From Girardia tigrina (taxonomy: Eukaryota), in NCBI GenBank assembly GCA_001938485.1, contig MQRK01198580.1:4025-61979 (forward strand): DNA of 57,955 nucleotides, given 5' to 3'. Positions within the stretch are counted from its first letter, which is position 1; each line of letters starts with the position of its first letter. Made by a program: the position numbers and the translations under genes. Positions 1,564 to 57,955 of the stretch are shown piece after piece. The notes beneath the pieces were generated by a model. It had not been told where the DNA came from. It worked only from the letters and a program-made list of their open reading frames with translations, and did not search any database.

Positions 1564-2860
1564 CAGTCTCATGCAGTTAACAATCGTTAACTAGACATTT
1601 ACAGTAGCATGACTGTATTTTGTACTTATAACTTTACCTGTATTTTAATGAAAATATGAAAAGAATTAAAAAGTAAGATTTATCTGTATTTATTTACAAA
1701 AAATAATCACATCAATGATCATGTATATCTATTTCTTTCGCATAGTCAAAAAAAACGTTTGACATGGCGATAATAATTCCTCACTTCTTTGTATTCTTCC
1801 TTTGCCGCTACAGCTCGAATTCTGTTTCTAAAACAAAATGCTGATGAGACAAAGGTAGTATATCAGGATAATTGGTGATCTCTGTTCTTAGATCCCACTT
1901 TAGCTTTGCAAAAAAGCCACAATCAGATTGAGGAATGGTGAATAGGGTGGCAATTGAATAATCTGATAATCAGATGTGATATTGAAGTGGAATTTGGTAT
2001 TATCATGGATTAGATAATGATGAGTTCTGGTTCAATGTGCTGTGTAGTTCGCTGATAAACGACTGATATTTTACGTGATCTACATTGCCACTGTATAATC
2101 TAAACAGCAGTGGGCTATGTTTTACTATCGCCATAATCAGTGACATATTTTTGCCCCTGTTTGTGTTACATTAACTGGTAATCCTTTCTGTGATCGTCCA
2201 TATTGCCTGCTTGTCCATAAATTGAAGTCGATTTCGTCAATGAAGATATACTGATTCATTCTCCAACTTTCATTGAGAAATCGGCCCACATAATCTTGAC
2301 TTACCTTTTTCACAGTGATAAATTTTCCAGTCAGAAATCTGGAAATTGTTGATTCAGATATATTCAATTATTTTGTTTCCTGACTATATCTCTTCATTTC
2401 TGTTAACGTGGATTGCGGCCATTCTTCCACGTATTGAATAATATGTTGGTCCAGATCTTCATCAATAATACGTATTTTGTGGCCTCCATGTTTTCCAATC
2501 GAAATGAGGCCACTTCTTTTATATTTGTACACAATATTTCTGGCCGCTGATTGAGAAATATCTAACTGTCTGAGAAAATATAACTGTCTTGAGAAATATC
2601 TACTCTTAAAAGCTAGAAAATCGAGTGTGTATAAGGCGTGTATTACCTTGTGTATGCATGCATTGCATGTGTGTATCGTGTATGTTAGGGGTAAGGACTT
2701 TTTTTATATTAAAACAACTCTTAAATGCTGTGAGCTATTTCTAAAATCTGTTTTTTTGATATTTTCTAAGTTTTAATTGGTTGTTATTTTTTAGATTGGA
2801 ATTTACAATATAAAATTTGCTATCGAAAGCTGAAATTTCAATCTTAATTGCAAGCGACTG
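1564..2860 (-). mobile_element. Tc1/IS630-like DNA transposon, decayed
   Basis: Imperfect TIRs CAGTCTCATGCAGTTAA and TTAATTGCAAGCGACTG flanked by TA. Transposase remnants: HTH (ISESTISRFL), IFIDE and PYSPFLN. Confidence 0.8.
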
Positions 2861-4615: not shown

Positions 4616-6501
4616 CGGTCCGACCCCGTTTTGGGGCAAATTTCAGCAATTTTGAGGTTTTCCACAAAAAGTGGGGTGCTCAAAAATTAAGTAAAAGATG
4701 TGGGAAAAATGACTTTTATGATAAAAAAATTACTGTATTAATGACTCATAAACCAAGATTAATCAATAAAACTCATAAACCAAGATTAGACATTAAAACC
4801 AAGATAAGTCATTCATTTTATTTTTTAATAAAAAAATCTGTGATTTTCATGTTATTCTTTTGTTTTTTTCCCAATGAACTCATAATATCGGCTTTGAATT
4901 TGTATAGGTGAAGAACATTTTCAGTAGTTTCTTGTTTGATTACATTAAGAAGTGTTGTGAAAGCACATTCAGTATCTTTTATGCTTTTTCCATAATCTAA
5001 ATGTTTCACAAATGTCTCGCTGCTATCTTCTTCATCACTGTTATCATCATCAGAGACGGTCTCTAAAATTGCATTTTCCACAATATCCTGATCAATCGGA
5101 CATTCTTTGTTGTCCTGTTGTTTTCTATTTGTCATAAATTTCAATTTCCAAGGCCTTTTTCAAAGCAATTTTGTATTGTAGATTCAGTTATTTCATCCCA
5201 GGCCATTTTTGAACATGACATTGTATCTAATATTGTGATCGCTTTTATAACTTCATCTATTTCAGCTGTAGGATTTTTGTCACAGATACTTGTTCTCCTC
5301 ATCCAATTATTAAAATGATTTTTAAACGCCTTTATTATCCCCTGATCACATGGCTGTATTAAAGAAGTCGTGTTTTTTTGGTAAAAATATTCCATCAATG
5401 TTTGAATATTGGATAGAAGTAGCATGACAAGTTGCATTGTCTATTAGCAGTGCTACTTTTCTTCCTTTTCCCCTCATTTCTTCATTAAAACGAGATAGCC
5501 AATTCTCTAAGATACTTTTGGTCATCTAGGCTTTGTATGAAGCATCATATGAAGCCTATGGCTTTTAGGTTTACTCCTCTCAATACTCTTGGTGACTTTG
5601 GTCGTCCTATTATAAGCGGCTTATATTTTTCTCCTGTGTAACTGCAACATAAAAGAAGTGAGAGACGTTCTTTTCTCATTTAATGTCAGCTAGATGATTC
5701 ATTTTTATCAACAAAACTTTTTTTTGACAGAGTTTTATAAAAAATTGCAGTTTCGTCACAATTGAAGATGTTTTCTTCACCATATTTTTTGATTAAATCA
5801 TTAAATGTCGAGCGAAAGTTTTCAGCCCTTCTTTATCAGCTGATCGTGCTTCGCCTTGAAGTGTTTTGAATTTTATATCAAACTGTTTCTTAAATCTGTG
5901 GAGCCAACCATTTGAAGCAATGAAGTCTTTATTAGAATGTCTATTTGCGATTTTACGAGCAATAAGTTTTAAAATTGGTCCATTAACCGGGAAACCTTTG
6001 CATCTGAGAGAATGAAACACCTCGTAAACCTCTGTATTTAATTGGTACCCTGTAGTCTCATTTGATGTAGAGCAGCCTTGGTATAGGATTTCCTTCCTTT
6101 TCATTTTCAGCCGGTGTAGACTTCCTTTAGAGATGCCATATTTCTCGCAAATTGACCTGACTGTATATCATTGCATATTCTGATTTTTTCACTTTGATTT
6201 AATTTCTTGGCCATACTCCATCTAAATTTCAGAAAATAAATTTAAAAATTAAGAATTGTGATATTCCTTACCGGATTGAATATTTTAAATTTCTAAATTT
6301 AATAAATCAAATATTTAAACAAAGATTTAAAAATTTTTAAAATTTTAACTAATTTTTCCCATTTGGAGGTTCATTTCTTTATAAAAATTCGTTTTTATAA
6401 GAATTAGTATTAAGGTGATAAAATTTTCCCCAGAACCGAGGTTTTCCCCAAAATAAAGGTTTTCCCCGCAGTTTGGGTTTCTCCAAAACGAGGTCGTACT
6501 G
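4616..6501 (-). mobile_element. pogo/Tigger transposon in the ENaC intron, transposase pseudogenised
   Basis: TIRs CGGTCCGACCCCGTTTTGG and CCAAAACGAGGTCGTACTG with TA TSD. CENP-B HTH (FIASNGWLHRFKK), FNCDETA, IDNATCH and QPCDQGII. Confidence 0.92.
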
Positions 6502-7442
6502 TATGTATTCCAATAGTAAAATATTTGACAATATAATATTAACTTTTAATAGAATACAAACTCGAAAAATCAGGAATGAGGACGAGTGGAGCTTTGTAAA
6601 ATCATGTTACTACAATTTTCTGAACAATTTAGAAATTTAAGAAACAATATTTATAAAAATTGTTAAAACATCCAAAATGAGACACTTATTTATAGTAAAA
6701 TCGAAAACTGAATGTACATTAAAAGCTAATCTTATATTTAAATTTGAATTTTATAGATGTCATAACGCATACATAGGAAAAGCATACTTTGAAAAACTAA
6801 GCAAAGCTCAGGTTTTCAATTCCACCTTTGTTCAAAGCCATCATGCCACCTAGATAATGACCGCGAGCTAGGCAAAAATGATATCCCAACAGAAACTCAA
6901 TTTGTCATTCGTTTGATGTAATTTTAAGGAAGTTTTTGAATAAAATCAAGAAATGAAGAGTATATGGGTTAATAATTACATTTAAAAATTGCGTTAAAAT
7001 TTTTATTAATTTGATTAAATTTTTGAAAGATCTAAAGCTTAATCGTTCATAAATTAATAACTGGTAGGGTCGTTTTTGATGTCTTTGTTTATGGGACAGA
7101 CCTCTCAGCAGTGTTGGTCGATGAGCCAGGAACCAAGTCATAATTATGTTGGCGAATTAATGGGAAGAAATGATTTGTAAAAGGTTATGTAAAATATCTT
7201 TGGATTCTTAAACTAACGTTCAAACTAAACTTTCTTTAACCAATAATTGGACGTATTTCCTTTCTATTTGATATAATATCGATCAAATGATCAGGCTTAA
7301 ATCTTTGAAAGTAATCACAAGTTTCAAAAATTTTAATTTGATTTTTGAATTTTAATTTAATAATTTTTGTTTTTTTTATCATACTAATAAAAATATGTGA
7401 AAAATAACTTTTTAAAATAAGGTCATCAAACTGAACAAATAC

Positions 7443-8795
7443 CTTCAAAGTATTTCCAGTCCAAAGATGAAGCTTATAATCTTCTTCCTGTACTACGGCA
7501 TCAATCATTTCCTTCATACCTGGTCGTGCCGATGAATTCTCAGATAAAATGTTATTAGCCTTCAGAAAATACACTAAATTCTTAAAACTTGGTAGATGGG
7601 GCCAGGCACTTGTACTGGACCCACCTTGGTATTGAAAATATGTACAAGAATAACGATTAACACACAGTTCATTTGCTTGTTGCAAGTACTTGGTCATAAT
7701 ATTAAAGATCAGACGAGTTTTGCTGAGATTAAATCCAGGATCGGTAATATTGAAGCAGTATTTAATATTCGCCAAATTTACATGATATAAAATTGGTAAT
7801 ATGTGTACGTAACAGTCAAATTGTTTTACAATTCTTCTTTGAGTTTCGTCCCAAATGCACATGGAAACTATAGAATAATTTACCATTGTCGAAGGTTCGT
7901 AAATTAAGTTATGATAACCTCGGGAAATACTTTCATCAGTGTCTAAACATTCGTACTCGTTTTGCGAGATCCTTTGATTGAGAAAAGATCTAATAGTATA
8001 CGTAGTTTCCTCTCCTCCTTTCGCTCGAAATTTTGTCGAATCGATTCCCGGAACGCCATTAGGTGCTGTTAAATATATCGTAAAATCATTCGTATAATCT
8101 TTAGATGGAGGATGTTTAAAATTGAAATCAAGAAGGTTGTATTCCCCAAGAGTAATATTGAACTGATCGGGATTATTTGGATCGTGATAATTATCTGAAT
8201 ACAAAATCAAAGTTAGCTTATCATAAGGATTAGTAATTTGACATATTGATGATTGGATTCGTATACAAACTAAATGATCCCAATTCATAATTAAATTAAG
8301 ATCTTGAGGTAATAAATAATGGGACTTATCATTACATATATACTGGATTAAAATAGTGGGAGAATGACGATGGGAAAAGGTTTTAAAAAGTTTCGCTACT
8401 CCAATTGAACCCCATAAAAGGTACGTTCTTAAGAAAGATTCAGTTTTCGTTATATTGCTATTTAACATCATGATTTCTAGTGTAATATTTTTCATATATT
8501 CATATTCATTTTTTGGAGGATATCGAAAAAAAGATTCCGCAAATACTCTGTTTGGACAAACATGAATATCCGGTTGAGAAAATCTTATTGAATCCTTTCT
8601 TGTATTCATTATAGTTTTGTGCATTTTATATTGTTTGAATAATTGAAAACTTTGAACACAGAACCCAGTGGCACAGGTCATTGTAAATAAGATCCATATA
8701 ATCCTTTTAAACGGGTTATGTTCATGTTCGTAAATCTGTGGTACCCCATGAGCCGATGTCGTTTTCAAGCAATTATCAACAAATTCTATTACCAT
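7443..8795 (-). CDS. DEG/ENaC (amiloride-sensitive sodium channel family) subunit, exon 1
   Basis: Contains the pre-TM1 TSAHG gating motif, TM1 (RIIWILFTMTCATGFCVQ), the PDIHVCPN motif, a Cys-rich thumb and STSAWP. The phase-0 donor AAG|GTATTT at 7443/7442 explains the AT-rich run-on tail of ORF 7236..8891. ATG assumed at 8795. Confidence 0.93.
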
Positions 8796-9920
8796 TTTAA
8801 CATACAAAAAGCCTTTTTTACAAAATTCTGAATTTTTAGTAAATAATTCACAATAAATATGACAAAATTGATATTTTGAGAGAGTAAACAAGAGCTGAAT
8901 CCTTTCGGAAACGCATAATTAAATGATTGATGGAAAAACACATTAAATAAAAAAAGAGAATAAATAACGCAAAAATTCATTGGCTTTATCACTTAAATTA
9001 TTTTGCACTTCATAATAGAAATAAATTCCATCCATATAATATTTATTACATTTATTTCAATTTAAGTTCATTTTGATTTGAGTTTCTATTCTATCGAATT
9101 AAAAAATTGTCTTAAGTATTCAAATAAATAAATAAAATCTTTAATTTTAATTACGAGATAAATTTATAATTATCAATCCACACGTTTAATTTTCCATGTT
9201 TTTTATTAGCTTGCTTTCTATATACATAAATATGTTTGTACATATATGTATCCATGGTATTTGGAAACCTACCTTTGAAGGCTTTTTACTCAATAAATTT
9301 TCTCCAAACTTTGCAAACTTACTCATTTTTGATGACAATAAATGATAAAGTGAAAATTTGATCAAAAAAATTTTTTTAAGGTCTTAAAATTGGAACAAAA
9401 CGGTCCCATCGGAGTTCCTGAATAATAATAGCGTAAAAAGATCTACTTATAACTTCTAAGTAGTTTATATTACGAAAAAATAAAAATTGAAAAATAAATA
9501 AAGTCCAGTAAACCGATATCAAGTCTAACTAGTAAATCGCCTTGTACACTTACTCATTTTCGATGACAATAAATGATTATGTGAAAATTTAATTACAAAA
9601 GTTTTTTATATCCATTCTTTATGCGGGAAGAACTCTACTTGGTTAACAGAATTTTTTCGTTACCTTTTGTAGAAGGAAAAATTACTATTATATTTTTTTA
9701 ATAATTTTTTTGTTATTAGTAAATATTTAATTGCAAAAGTGAATTGTAAAAATTTTTCGTTTGATATCTTTATAAATGTATGAAAACTGTTCTAATAATT
9801 CATTACAAAATAATCTATAAAATATACAAATGTTTTCGTTTTCATTTATAATCTTGAAAGTTATTCAATAATAAATTATATTTAAATTAAAATATGTACT
9901 TTAATTTTTCTTAACATTGT

Positions 9921-23847: not shown

Positions 23848-25111
23848 CTAGAACTGATAATGGCATTTTTAATAATAATGAAAAGAAAGGCCATTTTTTA
23901 ATATTAAATTTATTCACAATGCATACGCGTTTCACCATTTTGGCATCTTCAGTGCAATGAAATAAAGTGATTAATTGATATTTATATAGTTGAAAAACTA
24001 TTACATCATACGTCTCAAAAACATGCTTTTTTTTCCTTTTTTTATTTTTTTAACAAAAAAAGTATTTTATTGATATTTAAAAAAACTTTAATATGATTAG
24101 ATGAATCACCTTGCACGTTTAAGCATGGTTTATGATGCTTTATTAACAATGCTTCGGCAATAATCCTTTCATAATTTGTGTCAAAATTATTTAAAATCAC
24201 TTTAAAAATAAAAAAAATAATTTTCTGACCCAAAATACAATAGGAACATGATTAAAGGTTTGGTACATAGAGTCTGGGGTTTAACATCAACCTTTGAGAT
24301 ATTTGATAATGAAGTTGATGAACTTCATAATAGGCTTTCTAAAAAAGGATTTAATAAAAAGTATTTAAATAAAATCATAAAAGACACTGTTGAATCCATT
24401 AATTTCAAATCAAATAATGCATCAAATATAACTTCGGGAAATGACATTGATAATCAAATGACTATCAATCTAAAATTACCGTACTCAGAGAGAGCAAAAG
24501 AGTTCAAACGATTTTTAGAACATCGNNNNNNNNNNNNNNNNNNNNNNNNNNNNNNNNNNNNNNNNNNNNNNNNNNNNNNNNNNNNNNNNNNNNNNNNNNN
24601 NNNNNNNNNNNNNNNNNNNNNNNNNNNNNNNNNNNNNNNNNNNNNNNNNNNNNNNNNNNNNNNNNNNNNNNNNNNNNNNNNNNNNNNNNNNNNNNNNNNN
24701 NNNNNNNNNNNNNNNNNNNNNNNNNNNNNNNNNNNNNNNNNNNNNNNNNNNNNNNNNNNAATCTTATGGATTACAATAAAGATTTTAAAGTGATTTTAAA
24801 TAATTTCGACACAAATTATGAAAGGATTATTGCCGAAGCATTGTTAATAAAGCATCATAAACCATGCTTAAACGTGCAAGGTGATTCATCTAATCATATT
24901 ACAGTTTTTTTTAAATATCAATAAAATACTTTTTTTGTTAAAAAAATAAAAAAAAGGAAAAAAAGCATGTTTTTGAGACGTATGATGTAATAGTTTTTCA
25001 ACTATATAAATAGCAATTAATCACTTTATTTCATTGCACTGAAGATGCCGAAATGGTGAAACGCGTATGTATTGTGAATAAATTTAATATTAAAAAATGG
25101 CCTTTCATTTC

Positions 25112-31100: not shown

Positions 31101-34100
31101 CACTTCTATTTGTCCTGAATTGCTGACAAATAAAGTATTATTTTACGTAAAATTGTTAATGTTATCAAAATTAATTAATATTAATTTTTTATTATTTTTT
31201 TTAATTAAAATTTTTTTAAGTTTAAAAACTTTGTTGGCAAAATAGAGTTTTGTCTGCATTTAGAATGGATATAAAAAATTAAATTTTTTACTTTACTAGT
31301 TTATTTTACTTTCCAATATTTTTTTATTTCGATTATAATTCAAAACTATTAAAAAATAAAATTCCTATTTTCGAAAATTAAAAAATAACAATAATACTCT
31401 CTTTCACTATGTTGTTGCAGTGATTATTATATTTAATAAATTATTTTCTGAACTTAATAAATGTAATAAATATAGAGATCCCAAGAAACGATACGCAACG
31501 AGCAGACCAATTTATTCAATATAGAAACGCATCTCAGTGAGATGGATACTAACAAGAGGGTGGCTCTTCAGAAATCCGTAGAGACCAGCGACAAGAAATT
31601 GATTGAAGTCAAAGCAAACTTAGGCAGGTTGAAAGAAAGATTGATACCTATTACGGATATGTCTGAAGCTATAATCATGCAACAAACTCAAGCGGATGAT
31701 TTGAAATGCAAGTTACAAACATATGAGATAATGGCTGAATTGTTTTTCACCCAAATTGAGATCGGATCAATAACGACAAAAGAAAGTGCTCAAAATTATA
31801 TTGATTATATCGATAAACTTCTTGATCAAAAGTCCGACCAAACAGAAACCATTAAGAAAATTGAAGGCATCAATGCTGAAATTATTAAACATTTTCCCCA
31901 CTTGGAACAATTGGTCCCATTATTTGCGAGTGAAATAGAACATTTCGCTACAAATCTTACAATTTTCGAGTCGTTAGAAGGAACACGAAAGACACTGAAT
32001 GAAAAACTGGTGGTTTTAACGGAAATTGATAACAAATATAAATCATGTATCTCTGAGATCGAGACTCTTAAATATTATATAGTTTACAAAAAAGAAAATT
32101 TAAATTTACTAGACATAGAAACTGCAAGGCATAACATTGATACTTTCATCAATTATTTAAAAGACGTTCATAAAGCAATTGACAAAACCCAAATGGACAA
32201 ATTTACAATGGATCTAGAACAACTGGAGATTCTCTTAGATGTTTATGATGATCTATTGATGAAAGAGAAAAACAAAAAAGTCAAAGAAGAAGAATTTATC
32301 AAACATTTGGAAAAACAAAGTCCAATTTATGAAACAAAATTAGAAGATTACAACAAGAACCTTGTGAACATGGAACAGAATCTGAAAGAAAGTCCCAATT
32401 TCTTGTTATGTGAGATGGAGGCTTCGATAAATGGATTGAACATCCTCCGCAATGAGATTATGCGAGAGTCGATCAATATCTATGTGAACAATTTGAAGGT
32501 GATTATTTATTTATTAATCAATTATTCACGTTTTTTAGTCATTTGATAGAAACAAAATAATTTAATTTTTAACACATTAACTTTGAAGATGTATATATTC
32601 TTATGATTACTTTTTATTTCAATTCTTTTTTAACACGTTCGCGGACGGCTACTGTATAAAGAGTACTTTCGCTTTGTTCTAGAATGCCACCACTGCATAT
32701 GCAGTTCTTTCGATTTGGTCTAGTGGGTCACCACTGTATATGCAGTGCATTCGTTTTTACCACGTTTTTATTAGCTTGCTTTCTTCTCTGTTTGTCTGTT
32801 TGTCTGTCTGGAACAAATCTTGCGATTGATTTTTCGACCACTTTCAGTCATTCAATTGAGCTGAATTTTTTTATATAGGCTTGCTTCCGATGACAATACA
32901 ATATTATAAAAAGAATTTTGAAAAAAAAATTCCTAAATGATAACTAAAAATAGTTAAATAATATTAATAATAAAAAAAATTTTTTATAAAAAGCAACCAC
33001 GTTTTTCAAGCATTACCAATGCACTAAAAAGAGGAAAATAATTTTTTCTAGACATGTGCGAAATTTTATACCTAACCAAAAAAGTGGGGCATAGAAATAA
33101 TCGATTGTTACTAAAAAGCAGTAAAGAGGAAATAGCAGTTACTAATAGCAGTAATTCAGANNNNNNNNNNNNNNNNNNNNNNNNNNNNNNNNNNNNNNNN
33201 NNNNNNNNNNTAAAATTTCTCACATGTCTAGAAAAAAATTATTTTCCTCTTTTTAGTGCATTGGTAATGCTTGAAAAACGTGGTTGTTTTTATAAAAAAT
33301 TTTTTTTATTAATAATATTATTTATAAATTTCGTAGTAAATATTTTTAAAAAATATATAAATTAAATAATTTATTTATTCAAAGTTCATTGTATATACAA
33401 GTATCCGACTTCCACTTTTTATTGTTATAGCTAAATTCAGGTCGTCCGCGAACTTGTTAATATTTTCTAATCGGAATTATTATATTTTACCAAACATAAA
33501 TATTATTCAGTCAATCCGCATGGTTTAACAACTATAATAATTTAACTATTATTTAGTTACATTCAATCGAGGGCTTTATATAATTCTTCAAAACATCTAG
33601 ATACATTTATATGTTTCCTTTTAAAATATTTTCTAAGATGACCTGGCGCATTTTCTTTTCGCCGGTGGAGACTAGTTTAAACATCACAATTGAGGGTGGA
33701 TACTTTATTTGATATGGTTATTTAACATGGTCAGAGACAACTCTTAATTCATCAATGTTGTTGTTCCCGTCATTTAATTTGTTGGGAGCAGAGACGACAA
33801 TGAATTCCTACTCATTTGTAAAGAGGATGATAGACATGCTTCAATTTAAAATCTGATAAATACTTTTATTCAGTGTAACATCTTTTTTATTTGTTGTAAT
33901 CAGTTTCCCTTTTGTTTTGACCTTTGAATTAGCCTCGATATCTTCCTTCATTACCTTCAAGATATTAATGTCACTTACCCAATTTTTTCTCACTATTTAC
34001 CTCAAGATCATCACTCGAACGAACTAAATCGAACTAAATGGTCCAAAATGTTCTTTATTTAAACCCTTCATGTCCTTTGAAACTTTTTAAAAGCCATTGA

Positions 34101-37100
34101 CATACTACTTTTGACAAACTTCACGTAATTAAGATGTCATTGATAGTATAAAAGTAAGCTGACCGATGAACAGGAATTTAGTGATCGGTGAGTTTAATTT
34201 TAAAAATAGAATAAAATTAATAAATTAAAATAATATAATAAAATTATATTAATTTTAACAAACTACGAACGGAAAAGATCCGTAGTACAGATAGCCCTTT
34301 TGATTTATAAAATATCCACTTATAAAATATTCCTCACTTCACGATGTGATTCAACAAATTTTTGATACCTCTACTTCAAATTTATATAAATAATAAATAA
34401 AAATAAATAAATAATAAAAATGTATAGATAAAAACTACTTTATTGTCTTCATACACCGAAACCATGAAAAATGAAGACAAGGTTTATAAAATTATTTATA
34501 TGAAAATACTTGTTATTTATTGTTTAAAAATTTAAATTATTAAAGGGTTATGGTATTTAATCAATAATGACTCGCAATATTTTTGTTCTGAGTGCATATC
34601 AACATTCGAATCAAGAACTTGTCTTTTAATTTGACTGACAAGAGTTAAAAAAAGTAAAAGTAACTTCCCTGGAGCCAAAAGGTCTACATTGATAGGAAAT
34701 TTAAAACATTTAAACTTTTTGTTCTAACCACCTCAAATAATCGAGCTTTTCTTTATTCGCACTCGGTAAGTCATTTAACATCCTTAATTACCTGATCTTT
34801 ATTTATTTACTCAATTGAATTCAGAATATTTAACAAAATCATATCTGTAATCAAGCATTTTTATTCAATCAAATGGAAATCAATCAAAAATTGAATATTA
34901 AATTGTCAAGTGCGACATTTGTAGGTATGATTACTGTAAATTCAAATATTTATAATTTGACAATGACTTAACATTTTGTTGCTCAGGTTTTGTTGTTTGT
35001 TACAATCCTGGCTTTGATGAATCACTAATGAATCACTAGCAGCCCCCGATAGGCCTCCTACGGGGTCGGATAGTTTCGCTCTCCGAGATCTTTTCGGCTT
35101 CCCTGTGAGAAACGACCACCCATGGGTTGTATAGCCATGGTTCTGCATACCTTTGACTGTATTCGTGGACTTTGTACAGCCGCGAAAGGGACATCTGAAC
35201 TCACCCCTTGCAGTTAGATCTGCAATCCTAAAAGTCAGATGTGTTTCTTCAGTACCTATCGCTTCTTCCACCGCCATCGAGATAGTCGGGGGGTCCGTCA
35301 CGGATTAAATCTGGTTGCCCGAAATGTTGAGGTTTTCTACGACTCTTTCTTCTGTGGTTGTACTATCTCTCCAATGCGCACCTCATCTCCTTTCGAGTAT
35401 TAAGCCTGAGGCTTTTTAGGAGGCCTGGGACGCTGATGGTTCTCAACGGGCACTCCCACAATGTTGGGATCCATGCCTTTGTTCCGCCTGTCCGAAGATG
35501 CAACGACGTCATTACGACACCCTTCACCGGGATTGATTCATCCCAGATCATTAAGATGCAATCCAACCATCGACAGCGGGGTCACTACTCCCCACAGCCT
35601 TCACACCCAGATTGTAAAGCGTAGCCTAGTGAATGGATTGCTGGCCCATTCCTGAATACGATACATTGTCGGCTGTTCCGCAATGAAAGGCTAGCTTTCG
35701 GGCACTTTAGCCTAGAGACGGAATCGAACCCAATCTAGTTTCTCAGGGATACTACGTAGAAGTATGCCCACTGGCCGCACAGTTGATCCCTGATCTCTCC
35801 AATGTACGAGTTTTGACACCTGTTATAATCAAATTTGTAAACTAGATTAGCTTGCAATCCAAAATTCGTTCTTGTTTTCTTCATTTAATCCTTTCTTAAC
35901 CCGTGTTTGTGTACATAATTTGTCCAATGTAACCATAATGTTGTGATCTAAATGTTTGTTTATGTACATGTTGTCAATTTAAAGAACTAATAAATATTAA
36001 ATTATAATTATTGAAGTATGAAATTTGAAAACATGTACAATTATGAATTTCTTGAAAAAAATCTTTGACAAAACTTTTTTCAAAAAATATATTTTTTTTT
36101 GATTTTATCTTTGTGAGGAATATTTTTGAATGGTGTTTATTGTGTGTTGTTTGGTATGTTGTTTGGTATGTTGTTTTAGGATTGTGTTTCTCTCACCCAG
36201 ATGGAAGATTTATATTTTAAATATTTTAAAAGGTCGGGTTGTTTAATCAAGTATTAAAATTTAAATAATCTCTTTAAAATTAAACTAATATTTCATAAAT
36301 AATATTTTAATAATATTTTCTTAAAATAAATAAAAATTATTTCAAATTTAAAATATAAATTATTTTTGTAATAATTAAATTGTAATTTAAATTTGTTTAA
36401 ATAACAAGACGTTAAAGAATATTATTAAAGATTATCAATCAAGAAGGATAACGAGCTACGCAAGTTTTACGAAGAATTGTTCTAGTGGCAATTCAAATTG
36501 TGATATAAATAAATGTAAAGAAAACTCAATTAATGTTCTTAATAATCTTGAACCATTTTTAAACTCTTTTCATTCATCAAATCGGGGAGGATGTATTATT
36601 CATTAAAATCAAACACTGGACTGCCATGTCCTTTAATGTTTTTATACTTTGTAAAAGGAAGCATTTTGACTTTATGTTTATATTTTACTATGTACATGTT
36701 TTTATGTTAAATTCGCCCTTTAGTCCGTCTTTAATTTAAAAAAGCAAAGAAAAAATATTTTATAAATATAAATATATAATCAAAAATTATTTTCTACTGA
36801 TATTAATTTGAAAATATTGCTTAATACTTTTTAAATTGATAAAAAGATAAAATTCGTCAAACATCTTGTGACGCATTTTTAAAATCCGTATCAATTTAAA
36901 TGTATATTGTATCTTTGATGTCGACTAATTCTTCAGGAATCAAGAGTCTTTCGAATATATAATGAACGCCTTAATGATACCACAAGTTCGATTAAACGGT
37001 TCTCTTCTACTATCATCTCATTTTTTTGGAAGAAGTATGTTAATGGGGTTGATCTAAATGATTTACTTTCGAAAATGTGTTCTCAATGGACCATGACACT

Positions 37101-40100
37101 TAAAGTGTGTTTTGAAAGTGAAGACCTTGAATATCACGACAAAGTTGCTAAAGTCGAGGTAAAGCTTTTTTGTATTAATTTCTTAATTTCTTATTCATAG
37201 ATGTACAATATAATAAATTATTTACATAACTTTGGACTTGATCTAAAATTGATTTCGTTTGAAATCGTTCTTTTACAAATTTTATAGAGATGTAATTACT
37301 TCATATCACTTCAGAGGACGGATCGTAACATGTATGATTATTAAAAAATGTACTATTAGTCCTGGTTAAAAAGGATATTTGCTGCAATATTTAAGTACTT
37401 TTGATCAAATAGAATAGTAAATCCTGTACAAATAAAGAATTGTATTACATATTTCGTCTGCAACAAGTATTGTGATAAACCTTAGTGATTTTAATTCCGG
37501 TCCAGTTGGTACTAACTGGTACAAAGGCCCGGTGCCAGTAGTAGAGCTTCAACATCATTCTTGGTGACAACGTTGTCTTGAGGATGACGGCACTGAAGAC
37601 ATTTCTCGAATTAAATGGCTCTCGAATGCCGTAAATGACCCCATATCTTTATCTCGCTTCTTCAGTGTTTGTATAGCTGATATAAAAATACGTTTTGATG
37701 CATCTATCTATTTATACATATTCAAATCGGAATTCAGAAACTGGCAATTGTTTATAATCATCAAAATCACTATCTTTGAGACCAGTGGCGTTGATAGGGT
37801 TGGTGTCACCTAGTGCGGTAAAGTCACGGTGTCACCCCTCCAGATTTATTCTGATTTATTCACCATGTAATATCTCAAAGTATCAAAATGACAAGAACAA
37901 AAAAAAACAAGTTCACTGTCACTGAAGGTCAGCCGTCAGCGTGCACAAGCATTAAAGAACTGTAAAAACGTTAAGTTATAGATATTTATTCAATCTTCAC
38001 CGTTTGAATGATTTCACAACAAGTCAACGAATGTGTGCGTTACTTTATCATAGCATTAAATTACTGATAAAGTCAAATCAACATGAAAATGATGTAATAA
38101 TATTTCTTAACTGGAAGCTGACGTCATGGAATCCGAATACCCTGTGTTTTTTAGTTAACCTTAGCTTAACGCTGGGTTATTTATATAGGGTTATTTCCGC
38201 GATGTATTTTTCATTTGGTAACACCTCTGAGATTGCGTCACTCGGTGCGGTCCGCACCCCCGCATCCGCATAGCGACGCTACTGTTTGAGACTTCCATAG
38301 TTTTCTCTGTAGTTTTCCGGTAATTTTCTGGTTGTTCAACTAACCCTTTGGAACTAAATTAAATAATCCCTCTGATGTCACAACATTTTTTAATTTGGTA
38401 TCTAGTTTATCTAAATCCTTCAAACTATTTTAATCTCTATCTTTCAGAGAGACTTGCTAATTTCATTTAATTGATAATTACTTGAATTGAAAAGCTTTGC
38501 AACTTTTTCCTAACAGAAAATGTTTTTAATCAAGAAAACTTTTTTTAATTGAAACTTTAAAATCATTAATGATGTGTAATTAACTAGTCTTTATACGATG
38601 AACAACTATGAATATAAAACAATCAATGATATGCAATATATATATATATATTAATAATATAATTTGGACTTTATTAATCTTTTATTTAAGAAACTGCTTA
38701 TATTAATTAGTTATTTAGAAATAGAAAAAACAATTATTAAAAGAGCTTTAAGAATGTATTAAGTGATACATGCGCGCGTATTATACGCAAGTAAGTAGCG
38801 CTATCTTAATTAAAGTCAGTAAATCGAACATTTTCTTTTGTGAAACTAAAAAATTAATGGTATTTAATTATATTTGTCTAAAATGTTTGTTTTTTGCTGG
38901 TTTGTCGGTCACGCTATGATCAAAATGCAAAATGGCAGAAGAACCGAAGCCAATCCACGTAAGGACGAGGTGAATCTGCATAGCCTGCATTGAGACGGTT
39001 CTGTCGATGTAGCATCTTTGCTGAAAGACGTCGAGAAGCCGACGAAATCGACCAACTGTTAAATAAACACCGAATCCTAAACAATAAATTATAATTACGA
39101 TTTAAAAATTACAAAACAACCTTCTTAAGACGAAAATTCAGCTCCCCCGTCATTTATGACGGGTCTTTTTCTAGTTTTATCAGATTTTCCTAAATTTTGC
39201 ATATTTTCATTTGACATGAAGGCAATATTTTTAAGACATAATATTTTAATTATTTTATACTCATAATTTTCAAAAGTTTAGCTGTGATGACAAATTAATA
39301 TTTATTATCTTTTAGACCATAAAAGTGATGTTAGAGTGCTTGAGAGTTGTTGCCCAGCAATCTGAACATTTTGCTCTAACAAGTTTCCAAATGCAGATGA
39401 TCGATTCATTTAAAATGAGAGTTACTGATTTACTCGTAACTGTTGACGAAATTCAGAAGTTCATAAATAATTGCACCTTCAAATTGTCCAGTTTTTATTT
39501 TTTGAATGTCTGTCTGTCGAAATGGTCAGAAAAATTGAGTCGTCATTTTATCCTGGTTCAATCACTCTCTGAAGAATGTTCAATACAAAAATATATTCAT
39601 TTGAAGAAACAGTTGATGTTCTATGCGAATTCTGTTACCCAGTACAAACATTTGTACCAATTTTTCCAGAATTTATGTGATTTAATTACCGAAGAAATGT
39701 TTTTTGGTTTTGATATTGTTGAGGAAATTCATAATTCTTTGGAAAATATTACCAAGTCCATGGACAGTGTCAGTAGAAAACTTTCCTCTTCCATAGAAGA
39801 CATAGACAATCGTCTATCGGAATGGAAAAGACTGAAAGAATCTGAAATTTCTCTTCGTAAATCTTTTGATTTATTGGATGATACCTATACGGAATTGACC
39901 AAAGGCAAACATGTAGATAGAATAAAGGAACAAATGTACATTGAGGTATTTATTTCTATCAATTGTTATCTTCATTTATAAAACTAAAATAGCAAAAAGA
40001 AGATTGAAAATCAAATTATTAAAAAATTAATTGTCGTAATAAATCCTTTTAAGTTATTTAAGGGAATTAGGAATCTTAATTGTTATCATAATAAAACAAA

Positions 40101-50835: not shown

Positions 50836-53308
50836 GTGTACAACTAATTAATTTCGTATTTTTTTGTTAAAAAAACCATTTATTTAAGTATAAAAGTGAA
50901 AAAATATTTTATTCAAAANNNNNNNNNNNNNNNNNNNNNNNNNNNNNNNNNNNNNNNNNNNNNNNNNNNNNNNNNNNNNNNNNNNNNNNNNNNNNNNNNN
51001 NNNNNNNNNNNNNNNNNNNNNNNNNNNNNNNNNNNNNNNNNNNNNNNNNNNNNNNNNNNNNNNNNNNNNNNNNNNNNNNNNNNNNNNNNNNNNNNNNNNN
51101 NNNNNNNNNNNNNNNNNNNNNNNNNNNNNNNNNNNNNNNNNNNNNNNNNNNNNNNNNNNNNNNNNNNNNNNNNNNNNNNNNNNNNNNNNNNNNNNNNNNN
51201 NNNNNNNNNNNNNNNNNNNNNNNNNNNNNNNNNNNNNNNNNNNNNNNNNNNNNNNNNNNNNNNNNNNNNNNNNNNNNNNNNNNNNNNNNNNNNNNNNNNN
51301 NNNNNNNNNNNNNNNNNNNNNNNNNNNNNNNNNNNNNNNNNNNNNNNNNNNNNNNNNNNNNNNNNNTACAGAGCATTACCTTCAAACCATGAATATTCGG
51401 CTTTGGTGTCGATTTGGCTGGTTGGCCTGGCTTCACATATGATCTTTTACGCTTTGGGTTGTCGTAATGAATCCACTTTTCATCATCAGTGGCAATACGA
51501 TGTAAAAACGGTTTCTTTTGTGGCGATTAAGCAGCAAATCGACTCTCAACGTCTCTCGGCTTCAATTCGTGTGGCACCCAATTTCCTTGTTTCTGAATGT
51601 ATCCGGCTGCTTTTAAACGTTTAGAAATGGCTTGTTGAGTGGCTTCGAATGTTTTTCCAAGTTCTTCTTGAGTTTGACATGGATCTTGATCGAGTAATGC
51701 CTCCAATTCTTTGTCTTCAAACTTTTTTGATGGACCTGATCGCTCTTTGTCTTCTGTGTCAAAATCNNNNNTTTTAAATCGTGCAAACCACTGCTGACAT
51801 ACTCTAACCTCTGGAGCATATTCAGGATAAGCTTCTGAGAGTAAACGATGTGTTTCTGTTGCACTTTTCCTTAAATTAAAGAACAAAAGCAAACCTCCCC
51901 GAAAATGTTATTTTGTTGGAACGTAATTTGACATTTTGACTGTAATAAAAAAAATTGTGTGTTTACTAAAATTCAATAAAATTGACTATTGACTACATAA
52001 ATAGATATGAGGTTAGTAACAAATTCGAAATGAGGTAACAAATATGAAATGAGGTAACAAATATGAAATGAGGTAACAAATACGAAATTAATTAGTTGTA
52101 CACCTAATATATATATATAGATATATAAATTCACAGAAATAAAAGTTTATTAATCAAAGTATGAACGGTTGGAATCAATACATTTTTGCCAACGAGAAAC
52201 AAGTTGTTTATTTCATCAGCATAAAATGTATCGGTTCTTGAAGCGACGAATTCTTGGAAGGCATTTTGAGCATCATTTTGGTTTTTGAAAATTTTTCACG
52301 TAGGAAGTTGTACAAATGCCTGAAAAAGTAGAAGTCCGTTGGCTAGAGGTCTGGTGAATATGGTGGATGAGGCAGAGTTTCATAGCCCAATTCATTGAGC
52401 TTTTGAAGAGTCACTTTTGAAATATGAGGTCTAGCGTTATCATGAAGAAGGATGGGACTTTTTCGATTGACCAATCCCGGACAAAGGATTTTCAATTTTT
52501 TATGCATTTCATCAATNNNNNNNNNNNNNNNNNNNNNNNNNNNNNNNNNNNNNNNNNNNNNNNNNNTCCAGCATCACACCACCAAACTGTCACCATAACC
52601 TTACGGGGTGTTAGTTTCGGTTTTGGAAAGTGTTTCGGTACTTCATCTTTGTCCAACCACTGTGCAGAACGACGTCGGTTATCATACAGGATCAATTTCT
52701 CATCACAGGTAACAATACGATGATGATTGGCAGAACAAATTTCATAGCGTCGGTTCTTTTGATTTTCATTCAAATCATCGGGATCCCATTTATCATGTTT
52801 CTTGATTTTTCCAAGTTGTTTTAAATGATCCAGGACTGTTGAATGACTTATTCCCAACCCATCTGCAAGTTCTCTGATTGTTGTACGGGGATCTGTTTCC
52901 ATCATTGTCCTCAAATTGTAGTTGTTCACAGCAACTGGACGACCACGACCTTCTTCATCTTCGAGGTTTTCATCTCCATCAGAAAATTTTCGGAACCATC
53001 GTTGCACTCTGCGCTAGAAGCTGTTTCCTTGCCAAACACTTTATTGATATTGCGAGCCGTTTCTGCTGCTTTACGACCCAGTTTAAATTCGTACAAAAAA
53101 ATTGCTCGAATTTTATTTTTTTCCATTATTAATTTAGCACAGTAAATATTCTAAAAAATAACAGGAATATGTTAATAATTGCTATAGGAATATACAGCTA
53201 GGCATAAGATTTCAAATAATATCTAACACTAATTCATTTAAACTTTTATACATATCAAAGTAGATAAACAAAGTATAAAGCTCAAANNNNNNNNNNNNNN
53301 NNNNNNAC

Positions 53309-55699: not shown

Positions 55700-56640
55700 A
55701 TAAAATTTTCACATTATCATGTATTGTCATCGAAAATGAGTAAGTACAAAGTTCGGTAGATCTGATCTGGATTTCTTCATCTGTACTATAAAACCCTGAC
55801 GTGAGTCGTATCCGTGAACTTTGCGACACGATGCAGTAACATCCTTGATGTTTCTCTCCATATTCTTTGAGTGACATTTGGTATGAATGAATAATAATCC
55901 GTTGATGATGATTAGTAATAGCATCAGAATCTATGTTGCTGAGAAGTGGAGGAGAGGTAACAACAATATTGGTCCAATCTATCATATCTCTGTACGAGGC
56001 ATCAGAGAAATCCAGAGATACCTGTGTCTTGTCAAAACATCGAAGTTGCATTTTCCCGTTGTACACTGTTGGCGTGCTTCAATGGCCTTGTCACAAGTAA
56101 ACTTTCTCGACTTTTTATCTTCATCTCCTACAGCGATCAACAAAAAGCGATCTGGATGACAAAAATAGTTGTTATTAATCACAACAGGAGCAATGATATC
56201 CTGAGCAGCCTTGTCAAGTTCCTGGCATCTGGAAATCATAAAGAAGAAATTCTTAGCACCATCCTGCACATTTGACTGACATTTGATATTGAACCAACAT
56301 GGGAAGTAGAACACGACGATGAATCTAACCAACCTTGAAAGATCTCCTGAAGGATGTTCCTGTGATATATACAGACGGAGTAAAGCGTTCGCCTTGGTCG
56401 ACCATTGAGCATGATTCCTATCACGAGGTTGAGCTGCCTGTTAGAATGATTCATCCTTGTTACGAACACTTAAACCTTGTTGAACCAGGAGACATATTTT
56501 CAGTAAATATGACTGATCTTTGCTAAAATTTTGCATCACAGCGTCATTTACTTATACTTCATTTCCAGTAACTAGATTAAATGAAATTATTGGTTTTTCT
56601 TGTGGTTCAAAATTCATTATCTTTGTCAATTTACCCTCAT
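55700..56640 (-). mobile_element. Sola2-like DNA transposase relic
   Basis: YFCHPDRFLL, YRDMIDW...SPPLL and KCHSKNMERNIKDVT resemble the YFAHPE...PCHTQAVER transposase family; frameshifted. Superfamily assignment tentative. Confidence 0.55.
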
Positions 56641-56768: not shown

Positions 56769-57955
56769 GGTTATCAACTTCAAGTCAACTTAATTATCAA
56801 CTTTGATTTCCTAAATATGGAGTTAATGGCATCTTTAATTAGCTTATTTACATAATTTTTATTGTAGCCATTCTTTTCTAATCTATTTTGAAGGTCGTTT
56901 AAACCATCGTCCACATTCCCATATGAGGAAGATAAATTCCATACTCTANNNNNNNNNNNNNNNNNNNNNNTTCTGTTATACTTAGGGTCACAAAAGTTTT
57001 TGGGACCACTGTATAATCCAGTATCAGTGGATTTTCGAAACACCTGTGTACTGTAGTTCATCGATATTCTTTTTATGAGGACGTCCAGATATAGGACTCC
57101 ATATTTAGGAAATCAAATAATAAAAGTCACAACATAATCAAAGTTCCAAATAACACTGAGAATTTGTTAAACATCACCTTAAAGATACCATTTTCTGAGG
57201 GAGCAAAAGATTTCAAAAATTCATTAATGAAAAGAACTNNTTCAATTTTTAAATTGAAGGTAATTTTTACCACAAATAAAGTTTCTGGTTTCTTTTCTAA
57301 TAAATCAAAAACTCCATTGAGTATGCAGGCAAATATAGTATATCAGTTTAAATGTCACAAGTGCGAAGCCTTGTACATTGGAGAGACTAACCGTCATCTT
57401 CGAACTAGAATTGCTGAACATACTCAATCGAGTCGAAACAGTTCCATTCTTAATCATAAATTGAATTGTAGGGATCGAGAAAATATAGGGAGGATAAGGA
57501 ATTTAGTGTTTTATGTAAACATTTTGGCAATTATAAGGAGAGGATAATCACCGAAGCATTGTTAATTAAGCATTATAAACCATGATTAAATGTTCAAAGT
57601 GATTCCTCAAATTATATTAAAATATTTTAATTCTTAGTTTTTTTTGTCTTCTGTTTTTTTAAGTTTACTTCTTTTTTTGTCTTTTTTTTCTTTTTGAATA
57701 AATAATTAAAATTTTAAATATTGATTTTTAGACGTTTTTTCTTGTTATTTTTTTTTAATTAAAAAAATTAAAATATAAAAAAAAGCCTTAAATTGAGTAT
57801 TGCGTAACAGTCTACCGCTATATAAAATGGACTTACATCTGAAATTTCAATTAGTCAACTGAAGATGCCAATATGGCGAAACTAGTATTGCAAAATAAAA
57901 ATAAATGTTTGGAAAAATGGCTATTTTTTGTTTTATTAACCCGATTGCCATTGGA
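56769..57955 (+). mobile_element. Penelope-like element with 5' inversion
   Basis: GIY-YIG (NIVYQFKCHKCEALYIGETNRHLRTRIAEH) on plus. RT C-terminus (YLDVLI...VFRKSTDTGLY) inverted at 56780-57095. Confidence 0.9.
57856..57890 (+). ncRNA. Minimal type I hammerhead ribozyme (Penelope repeat)
   Basis: CAA-CUGAAGA-U-GCCA(AUA)UGGC-GAAAC(UA)GUA-UUG; predicted cleavage after 57887. Confidence 0.9.

What the first reader, a model, noticed from the sequence alone, without database searches (positions are those of the whole stretch)
35700..35791. HDV-like ribozyme heading a zinc-finger (NeSL/R2-class) retroelement 5' fragment
Seen: the minus strand folds into the nested pseudoknot order P1 AGGGAU/AUCCCU, P2 GGGCAU/GUGCCC, P3 ACU/AGU around a 7-nt L3 (UCUACGU), P4 CUAGA/UCUAG and J4/2 G-CUAAA with the catalytic-C position intact. 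It sits at the edge of a GC-rich island upstream of a C2H2 ORF. Known: R2, R4 and RTE LINEs use HDV-like ribozymes to define their 5' ends. Unusual: a 6-bp P1 with A1-U, a non-canonical L3 and a weak P1.1. P1 can alternatively extend to 8 bp into upstream sequence. Activity is inferred.
Basis: partly seen in the sequence, partly recalled or inferred. Interest (0 to 1): 0.75.

Follow-up and report, generated by a model that had tools for sequence, protein, structure and literature searches.

The report
Ribozyme retroelement aimed at Penelope nuclease
A predicted self-cutting RNA of a known type starts a 416-base, repeated and probably mobile element that sits, stacked on the tail of a larger jumping gene, inside the nuclease motif of a third jumping gene (Penelope), a spot that these elements appear to hit again and again.

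Summary
P1 has 7 bp starting at C35792 (C1-G), and P1.1 is two Watson-Crick pairs. Other copies begin at that C in several different flanks. Self-cleavage is inferred, not shown.

The element is not R2/NeSL. The zinc finger is the last of three C-terminal fingers of a 1188-aa APE-RT LINE, RTE-like by recalled motifs. A full-length distant relative (L012) also starts with a C1-G HDV fold.

The ribozyme heads a 416-bp unit, 35792-35377, flanked by an exact 12-bp duplication. The unit is stacked on a 335-bp piece of the LINE's 3' end, inside the YIG codons of a Penelope endonuclease relic. In read-derived contigs, at least 7 distinct element breakpoints join this same site.

Best reading: a ribozyme-headed non-autonomous partner and its LINE, inserting preferentially into Penelope. 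The main rival is that the unit is the LINE's own 5' UTR. The scan noted this arrangement before on other pieces of this genome. My paper searches did not find it in print.

The parts
35699..35792 (-). HDV-like ribozyme. P1 35792-35786/35750-35744 (C1-G); P2 35770-35764/35705-35699; P3 35763-35761/35753-35751; L3 35760-35754; P1.1 35759-35758/35743-35742; P4 35738-35734/35716-35712; catalytic-position C35710. Predicted cut between 35793 and 35792.
35377..35792 (-). 416-bp repeated unit headed by the ribozyme, with no recognised protein product; longest open frame 68 codons at its 3' end
35793..35804 (-). First copy of the 12-bp direct repeat CATTGGAGAGAT (likely target-site duplication). It lies in the YIGE codons of the Penelope relic and ends at -1 of the ribozyme.
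35365..35376 (-). Second, identical copy of the 12-bp repeat, between the 416-bp unit and the LINE piece
35030..35364 (-). 3' piece of a three-finger APE-RT LINE: residues 1080-1188 (92% identical to P0127/P0132), third C2H2 finger, premature stop at 35307-35305, one base missing in the G run near 35042, family stop at 35038-35036. The family's 3' UTR is absent.
35017..35038 (-). 11-bp tandem duplication at the right junction. It is likely a deletion scar; it is not the family tail, because family contigs continue differently.
   Evidence: loose ends at 35043 and 35024
35795..35878 (-). Penelope-type GIY-YIG endonuclease relic, first half, up to YIGE; same strand as the inserted elements
   Evidence: 42% identity, E 3e-5, to the window ORF 57095-57547, which has Pfam GIY-YIG at E 4.6e-5. 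Pfam on this 28-aa piece alone found nothing.
34538..35016 (-). Remainder of the Penelope endonuclease relic, degenerate and longer than an intact copy
   Evidence: 34621-34538 has 39% identity, E 0.002, to a window Penelope C-terminus. 35016-34990 resembles the intact-target loose end (by eye).
35720..35730 (-). tRNA T-loop / Pol III B-box-like 11-mer capping P4 (a lead only)

Best explanation
The fold at 35792-35699 is an HDV-like ribozyme, predicted to cut 5' of C35792, that begins a 416-bp repeated unit which is likely a non-autonomous partner of a three-finger APE-RT (probably RTE-type) LINE, and both appear to insert by preference at the YIG codons of Penelope endonuclease genes. Likely mechanism: a copy lying sense inside a Penelope element (or in another host transcript) is read through; the ribozyme frees the element's 5' end; and the LINE protein reverse-transcribes it at a nick just before CATTGG, leaving a duplication of about 12 bp. 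Each insertion regenerates the target upstream, so elements stack. Here the LINE came first (5'-truncated, later losing its tail), then the unit. Shown: the fold, the boundary, the duplication, the protein architecture, the Penelope context and repeated junctions. Inferred: cleavage, partner status, order of events, active targeting, and use of Penelope transcripts.
For: Boundary: other copies start at CAGGGAT in at least five upstream contexts. These are X12 loose ends at 35792 and 35793, X1 loose ends at 35766 and 35783 (divergent J1/2, same P1), and the junction lacking 35793-35794 in 10 X1 contigs and in X10, X12 and X14. Structure: 9 of 10 changes of 2% or more at paired positions keep a pair alone (6) or with a commoner change at the partner (3), including L3 U>C with P1.1 A>G; none fall in P1 5', P3, the P4 stem or J4/2. 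Lineage: L012, a full-length APE-RT-three-finger element (28% identical over 1205 columns; same 22-row clade, support 99/93), starts with a C1-G, 7-bp-P1 HDV fold about 260 nt before its APE. Duplication: the exact 12-mer occurs twice in the window, 6e-5 expected in the island. Both copies carry a T where intact targets have C (57374; loose end at 35794), so the inner copy was made from this flank. Targeting: 5 of 15 joints shown (of 136), plus 2 more in table 5c, link different element positions (35068, 35070, 35152, 35194, 35272, 35306, 35464) to 35794-35798, and none shown goes elsewhere in the upstream flank. The deep Penelope contig ends at 35795 in X10, X12 and X14. Partner status: the exact duplication, summed depth over the unit near that of the LINE 3' end, and 17 of 24 positions alike between 35417-35395 and a loose end of the LINE 3' UTR (by eye).
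Against: There are no cleavage data, and no raw RNA reads were laid (all seven runs were contigs). In this copy U-1 can extend P1 and block P1.1, and nested folding pairs J1/2 with L3/P3. Paired positions are not less variable than loops (9 of 46 against 7 of 48). All 9 compatible changes are transitions, their phase is not shown, and one 4.4% variant breaks P1.1. Joints were read at 80% likeness with sides of 21-33 letters, which the tool flags as often coming from repeats; 121 of 136 joints were hidden; joints to other targets cannot appear in that table; depth is not copy number; X1 and X2 may be the source sample. The unit also sits in non-Penelope flanks (X12), so targeting is not strict, and one Penelope target in the window is empty (57374). 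The unit's last frame runs open into GCA TTG G, and one other joint (35311-35374) keeps only CAT after the unit; both fit a LINE 5' UTR. RTE membership rests on recalled motifs, because the tree had no labelled references.
Confidence: 0.6

Rival explanations
1. The 416-bp unit is the LINE's own 5' UTR. The locus is one internally deleted or template-switched LINE copy, with the 12-mer arising from microhomology (the unit's CATTGG against the target's CATTGG) plus copying of flank bases. The ribozyme, the lineage and the Penelope preference stay as in the best reading.
For: 416 + 3567 nt plus a short 3' UTR matches the 3.9-4.1-kb contigs of the family. The proteins start (M)GTWNV, and the unit's open frame reads EMRCAL into TTG. 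L012 has its ribozyme directly in the LINE 5' UTR. A second joint keeps CAT after the unit.
Against: A perfect 12-bp duplication with a locus-specific base brackets the unit exactly. The unit's summed depth is close to that of the LINE 3' end, although 5' ends of LINEs are usually far rarer (general knowledge). No protein carries either open frame of the unit (weak negatives). The unit's 3' end resembles the LINE 3' UTR (by eye). Earlier scan notes describe free-standing 390-400-bp copies (unchecked).
Confidence: 0.25
2. There is no active targeting. One or a few LINE/unit insertions into a Penelope copy were amplified afterwards (as Penelope passengers or by duplication), or the site is only a mild hot spot for a non-specific APE.
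For: The junction lacking 35793-35794 recurs nearly unchanged in four runs, as an amplified composite would. Both partners are very abundant. The laid stretch can show only this target. RTE-type elements are described as inserting broadly (PMC13708176 and PMC8501958 passages).
Against: At least 7 different truncation points join within 5 bases of one site. Two elements are stacked at this one locus with a regenerated target. The Penelope contig breaks at the site in 3 of 3 low-depth runs.
Confidence: 0.13
3. One reading: 5' fragment of an R2/NeSL-class element with N-terminal zinc fingers and a 6-bp P1.
For: R2 elements carry HDV-like ribozymes with a P1 of 6 or 7 bp (PMC3774820 section 16). 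A C2H2 finger lies downstream on the same strand.
Against: The finger is the C-terminus of an APE-RT protein. None of 93 long RT-bearing homologs has a finger before the RT. There is no rDNA, snRNA or tRNA target next to it. The family 5' end includes C35792.
Confidence: 0.01

Closest known systems
R2 SIDEs and R2/R1 hybrid SIDEs of Drosophila rDNA (PMC3414825, passages)
   Same: Short non-coding elements with a 5' HDV-like ribozyme and a LINE-like 3' end, interspersed with LINE copies in tandem at one target and separated by the target duplication (14 bp there, 12 bp here).
   Different: The target here is a protein-coding motif of another retroelement, not 28S rDNA. The LINE is a single-ORF APE-RT with three C-terminal fingers, not R1 or R2. 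Partner status is not proven.
L1Tc/NARTc and SIDER ribozymes of trypanosomatids (PMC3185411 and PMC4035085 passages; PMC6765202 figure legend)
   Same: APE-type LINE system, cleavage before a C1, upstream bases able to extend P1 and disturb P1.1, duplication of about 12 bp, non-autonomous partners sharing the ribozyme.
   Different: L1Tc has RNase H and inserts at dispersed sites; P0132 has no RNase H hit. P1.1 here has 2 bp. The host is an animal.
HDV-like ribozymes of RTE and baggins elements (Ruminski et al. 2011; paper not held, seen only as cited in PMC6765202)
   Same: An HDV-like ribozyme at the 5' end of a promoter-less RTE-type element, thought to free it from co-transcripts.
   Different: No target preference is described in the passages read; a three-finger C-terminus; C1-G first pair.
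Tx1- and R1-clade target-specific APE LINEs (PMC4640811 passage; that Tx1L targets a DNA transposon is recalled and also named in earlier scan notes)
   Same: An APE LINE with a repeated target; one transposon nesting in another.
   Different: Different clade by architecture (single ORF, C2H2 fingers). The target is a Penelope catalytic motif, and a ribozyme heads the inserted unit.
RTE-2_OV of octopus (10.1101/2021.01.24.427974, passages)
   Same: Single ORF with endonuclease, RT and a C2H2 finger, called rare in RTE.
   Different: One finger there, three here; no ribozyme or target reported in the passages read.

Membership tests
HDV-like ribozyme | Nested double pseudoknot P1, P1.1, P2, P3, P4 in the right order | tested here: met
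   all 24 pairs of the model are Watson-Crick or G-U
HDV-like ribozyme | Catalytic C and conserved A in J4/2; L3 with U..CG | tested here: met
   C35710, A35708-35706, L3 UCUACGU; no variant of 2% or more in J4/2
HDV-like ribozyme | Cut site at the first base of P1 equals the element's 5' end | tested here: met
   family boundary at C35792 in at least five contexts
HDV-like ribozyme | Covariation of stems across copies | tested here: inconclusive
   9 of 10 changes compatible, but unphased and all transitions; different stems with the same fold in L012 and L001
HDV-like ribozyme | Match to a curated Rfam HDV family | tested here: not met
   no HDV family at E up to 10 in 33000-38000
HDV-like ribozyme | Mg2+-dependent self-cleavage | not testable with these tools
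   needs an in vitro assay
R2 / NeSL (RLE) LINE | Zinc fingers N-terminal to the RT | tested here: not met
   fingers are C-terminal
R2 / NeSL (RLE) LINE | C-terminal RLE endonuclease, no APE | tested here: not met
   APE at residues 2-242, and the protein ends about 30 residues after the third finger
RTE clade | Single ORF with APE and RT, no RNase H | tested here: met
   P0132; L012 has the ribozyme followed directly by one 1175-codon frame
RTE clade | RT phylogeny with labelled RTE references | tested here: inconclusive
   the tree had no labelled references and its base is open; motifs look RTE-like by recall; DUF6451 only at E 0.07-0.22; Vingi is not excluded by domain order alone
RTE clade | Short 3' UTR ending in tandem repeats | not testable with these tools
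   the window copy lacks its tail; loose ends show only 30 letters
SIDE / non-autonomous LINE partner | Non-coding, repeated, flanked by its own target duplication | tested here: met
   (the duplication was seen at this one locus only)
SIDE / non-autonomous LINE partner | 3' end shared with the partner LINE, and distinct from the LINE's 5' UTR | tested here: inconclusive
   17 of 24 positions alike by eye; the LINE 5' UTR was not obtained
Pol III SINE | Internal A and B boxes | tested here: inconclusive
   exact B-box 11-mer (8 of 20000 shuffles, pattern chosen after seeing it; the loose pattern hits 2137 of 20000); only a weak A box; family variants hit the B-box core
Target-specific LINE | Many independent insertions at one base of a repeated target | tested here: inconclusive
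   at least 7 breakpoints at 35794-35798 and a contig break in 3 runs, but no genome-wide denominator; other flanks exist

The most novel reading that the evidence does not exclude
An RTE-type LINE lineage with three C-terminal zinc fingers, together with its ribozyme-headed short partner, has become a parasite of Penelope elements. It nicks the conserved YIG codons, inserts in the sense orientation so that Penelope transcripts carry it, cuts itself free with a C1-start HDV ribozyme as R2 does from rRNA, and disables the host element's nuclease. This would be a target-preferring RTE whose target is a catalytic motif of another retrotransposon.
Probability: 0.4. Interest if true: 0.8.

Novelty: new variant of a known kind. 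Interest (0 to 1): 0.58.

Why it matters
The ribozyme itself is a new member of a known class. The setting is what matters. Target-specific LINEs are mostly RLE, R1 or Tx1 elements (PMC4640811 passage), and RTE elements are treated as broad inserters, also in gene-writing work (PMC13708176 passages). A single-ORF APE LINE that prefers one 12-bp coding motif would give a direct test of whether C-terminal fingers or the APE set target choice. It would also be a case of one retrotransposon using and disabling another. The family is abundant and has intact 1188-aa copies, so nicking and cleavage assays are feasible.

Tried and rejected
No genome was held for this window, so there was no genome-wide copy census.

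Negative searches. Rfam found no HDV hit at the site or in L001, L002 or L006. Nested folding gave no signal (z +0.80 for 141 nt; z -0.41 for the unit). Searches for family DNA were empty: viral contigs, metagenome contigs by protein (80 candidates, none confirmed) and GTDB by pattern. The metagenome pattern scan gave 11 loci; none matched the island by blastn or the LINE by tblastn. By eye, 8 of them show no HDV stems, L001 folds well but has no RT nearby, and L002 and L006 fold poorly in P2. The MAFFT alignment of three ribozymes misaligned L012 and was not used. Both open frames of the unit found no protein; these are weak negatives.

Readings dropped. I first took the 11-bp tandem at 35038-35017 for the LINE tail; loose ends rejected that. 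I first took VRIG at the unit's end for the APE start; those bases are the Penelope YIG copy. No ribozyme descriptor hit lies upstream of the older APE relic at 1040. There is no tRNA gene near the island. RNA-labelled runs X3 and X9 hold contigs over the island, but these cannot show transcription. Seven of 24 listed runs were laid.

Papers. Ruminski 2011 was not held. No supplements were read, so published ribozyme tables may hold similar cores.

Full report
Observation. A descriptor search found one 7-bp-P1 site in the window, starting at 35792 on the minus strand, and no minus-strand site in the 6-bp register. In the 7-bp register all 24 pairs are Watson-Crick or G-U. P1 is CAGGGAU/AUCCCUG with C1-G, and L3 C,U pair with A35743 and G35742 to make a full 2-bp P1.1. 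The 'unusual' features in the finding therefore come from a one-base shift. The 8-bp extension is real and would take A35743 from P1.1; such extensions lowered activity in L1Tc (PMC3185411 passage). A looser descriptor hit 3 of 1000 shuffles of the 1-kb region but 5 times in 12 whole-window shuffles. Rfam and nested folding gave nothing. The fold alone is suggestive, and the family data decide.

Family data. No genome was held, so I laid contigs of seven of 24 listed runs. The island is deeply covered in organism A (summed depth about 0.8-2.7 million against 40-50 at 34800-34887; not a copy number). Copies begin at CAGGGAT in at least five upstream contexts, two of them with a different J1/2, so C35792 belongs to the element. 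In X1, changes of 2% or more fall at 9 of 46 stem positions and 7 of 48 loop positions, so stems are not less variable. However, 9 of 10 changes at paired positions (counting L3 35758) keep a pair alone or with a commoner partner change, including U-A to C-G in P1.1. One change (35742, 4.4%) breaks a pair. Phase is not shown, and the compatible changes are all transitions. A C1 start has precedent: L1TcRz cleaves before C1.

The zinc finger. The ORF matched P0001 at 95%, whose 90% cluster holds 1188-aa proteins on 3.9-4.1-kb contigs. Window 35364-35038 is residues 1080-1188 at 92%. P0132 has APE at 2-242, RT at 534-780 and C2H2 fingers after the RT, with no RNase H hit. None of 93 long homologs has a finger before the RT; 28 have two or three after it. 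NeSL/Utopia proteins have N-terminal fingers and a C-terminal RLE (PMC4640811), so the R2/NeSL label fails. In an RT tree of 50 rows (44 of the 93 long homologs plus P0030 and P0088, three eukaryote-type loci and one group II intron RT), P0132 falls in a 22-row clade (99/93) made almost wholly of multi-finger elements. The tree had no labelled references, so 'RTE-like' rests on recalled motifs and the single-ORF layout. L012, a 3.7-kb contig filed in a bacterial MAG but encoding a member of this clade, begins with an HDV fold with C1-G, a 7-bp P1 and wholly different stems, about 260 nt before its APE. The lineage therefore carries this ribozyme type.

The setting. An exact 12-bp repeat ends at -1 of the ribozyme and recurs at 35376-35365, exactly where the LINE piece starts (6e-5 expected). 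An earlier scan note (e1-9899037) pointed me to Penelope, and I tested it. The upstream flank translates as ..[15 protein letters not shown], 42% identical to the window's GIY-YIG ORF at 57095, and the endonuclease's last part resumes at 34621-34538. The repeat is the YIGE codons. Both copies end in T where intact targets have C, so the inner copy came from this flank. The LINE piece has lost its 3' UTR (loose ends). The order on the minus strand is Penelope 5' half, repeat, 416-bp unit, repeat, LINE piece, scar, Penelope 3' half, all in the same orientation.

Targeting. Of 15 joints shown (136 found), 5 link different LINE positions to 35794-35798, table 5c adds two more breakpoints, and none shown reaches another part of the upstream flank. 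The unit's junction with this target has about a tenth of the depth at 35793 in X1, and the deep Penelope contig ends at 35795 in X10, X12 and X14. There are several cautions. The tool warns about joints at 80% likeness with short sides, most rows were hidden, other targets cannot show as joints, the unit also has non-Penelope flanks, and the site at 57374 is empty. This is evidence of preference, not of strict specificity.

Partner or 5' UTR. For a free short partner: the exact duplication, depth near that of the LINE 3' end, a by-eye likeness of its 3' end to the LINE 3' UTR (17 of 24), no protein carrying its frames (weak), and unchecked notes of 390-400-bp copies elsewhere. For a 5' UTR: the length sum, an open frame running into TTG before the (M)GTWNV position, the layout of L012, and a joint that keeps only CAT after the unit. 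I put it at about 0.6 to 0.25. P4 is capped by an exact B-box-like 11-mer, but the A box is weak and family variants hit it, so it is a lead only.

Mechanism. Inferred: read-through transcription, cleavage before C+1, and target-primed reverse transcription by the LINE protein at a nick before CATTGG, giving a duplication of about 12 bp that regenerates the target and allows stacking, as R1 and hybrid SIDEs do in rDNA (PMC3414825 passages). This copy may be less active than most because of U-1. It appears to lie antisense in an intron of a large host gene (inferred from the + strand ORFs; dynein-like lead).

Comparison and novelty. HDV-like ribozymes on RTE elements, L1Tc/NARTc and SIDEs are known. 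Nine paper searches listed no LINE aimed at Penelope and no three-finger ribozyme lineage; the library lacks most subscription papers and Repbase. What I saw of each paper: passages of PMC5035012, PMC3185411, PMC6765202, PMC4035085, PMC3747384, PMC13708176, PMC3414825, PMC8501958, PMC4640811, PMC4908430 and 10.1101/2021.01.24.427974; passages and section 16 of PMC3774820; only listings for the rest; Ruminski 2011 only as cited. No supplements were read. The scan noted the YIG-site arrangement on other pieces of this genome; those notes are leads, not support. 'Flatworm' comes only from such a note and was not tested here. New here are the corrected register, the family boundary, the junction data across runs and the L012 relative. 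Verdict: a real ribozyme with the wrong family label, in an interesting setting; new variant of a known kind, interest 0.58.

Noticed in passing
window 35730-35720 (-): P4 is capped by an exact tRNA T-loop / Pol III B-box 11-mer, 62 nt from the unit's start; weak A box; no T4 run in the unit. A promoter may be overlaid on the ribozyme.
   Followed up: partly
   Followed up: partly
window 57095-57630 (+), 56780-57112 (-), 24081-24924: Penelope pieces in inverted pairs, with an empty YIGE target at 57374 and hammerhead-like cores at 23952, 25039 and 57859.
   Followed up: partly
window 1040-160 (-): Older relic of a related APE domain (34% identical to P0132). Upstream 1230-1040 has a worn J4/2-P2-like end but no descriptor hit.
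   Followed up: partly
L001:1130-1208 (+): HDV-like fold with the same P3-L3-P1.1 core as the window but different P1 and P2 (A1-U, 8-bp P2), on a contig that looks fungal, with no RT nearby.
   Followed up: partly
L012 (whole contig), L013, L014: Eukaryotic LINE contigs sit inside bacterial MAGs, likely as contamination. L012 has no ATG before its APE start, which fits ribozyme-assisted translation.
   Followed up: partly
window 17583-46461 (+): Long helical ORFs, probably exons of one large gene; no clear Pfam hit; atlas lead to the dynein heavy chain N-terminal region, weak.
   Followed up: partly
window 7236-8918 (-): 560-codon open frame of an ENaC/ASIC-family channel (Pfam ASC, E 2e-21).
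   Followed up: no
window 2368-2703, 5793-6167, 50909-53013, 55982-56440: Tc1/mariner/pogo-type transposase relics and one unassigned relic.
   Followed up: no
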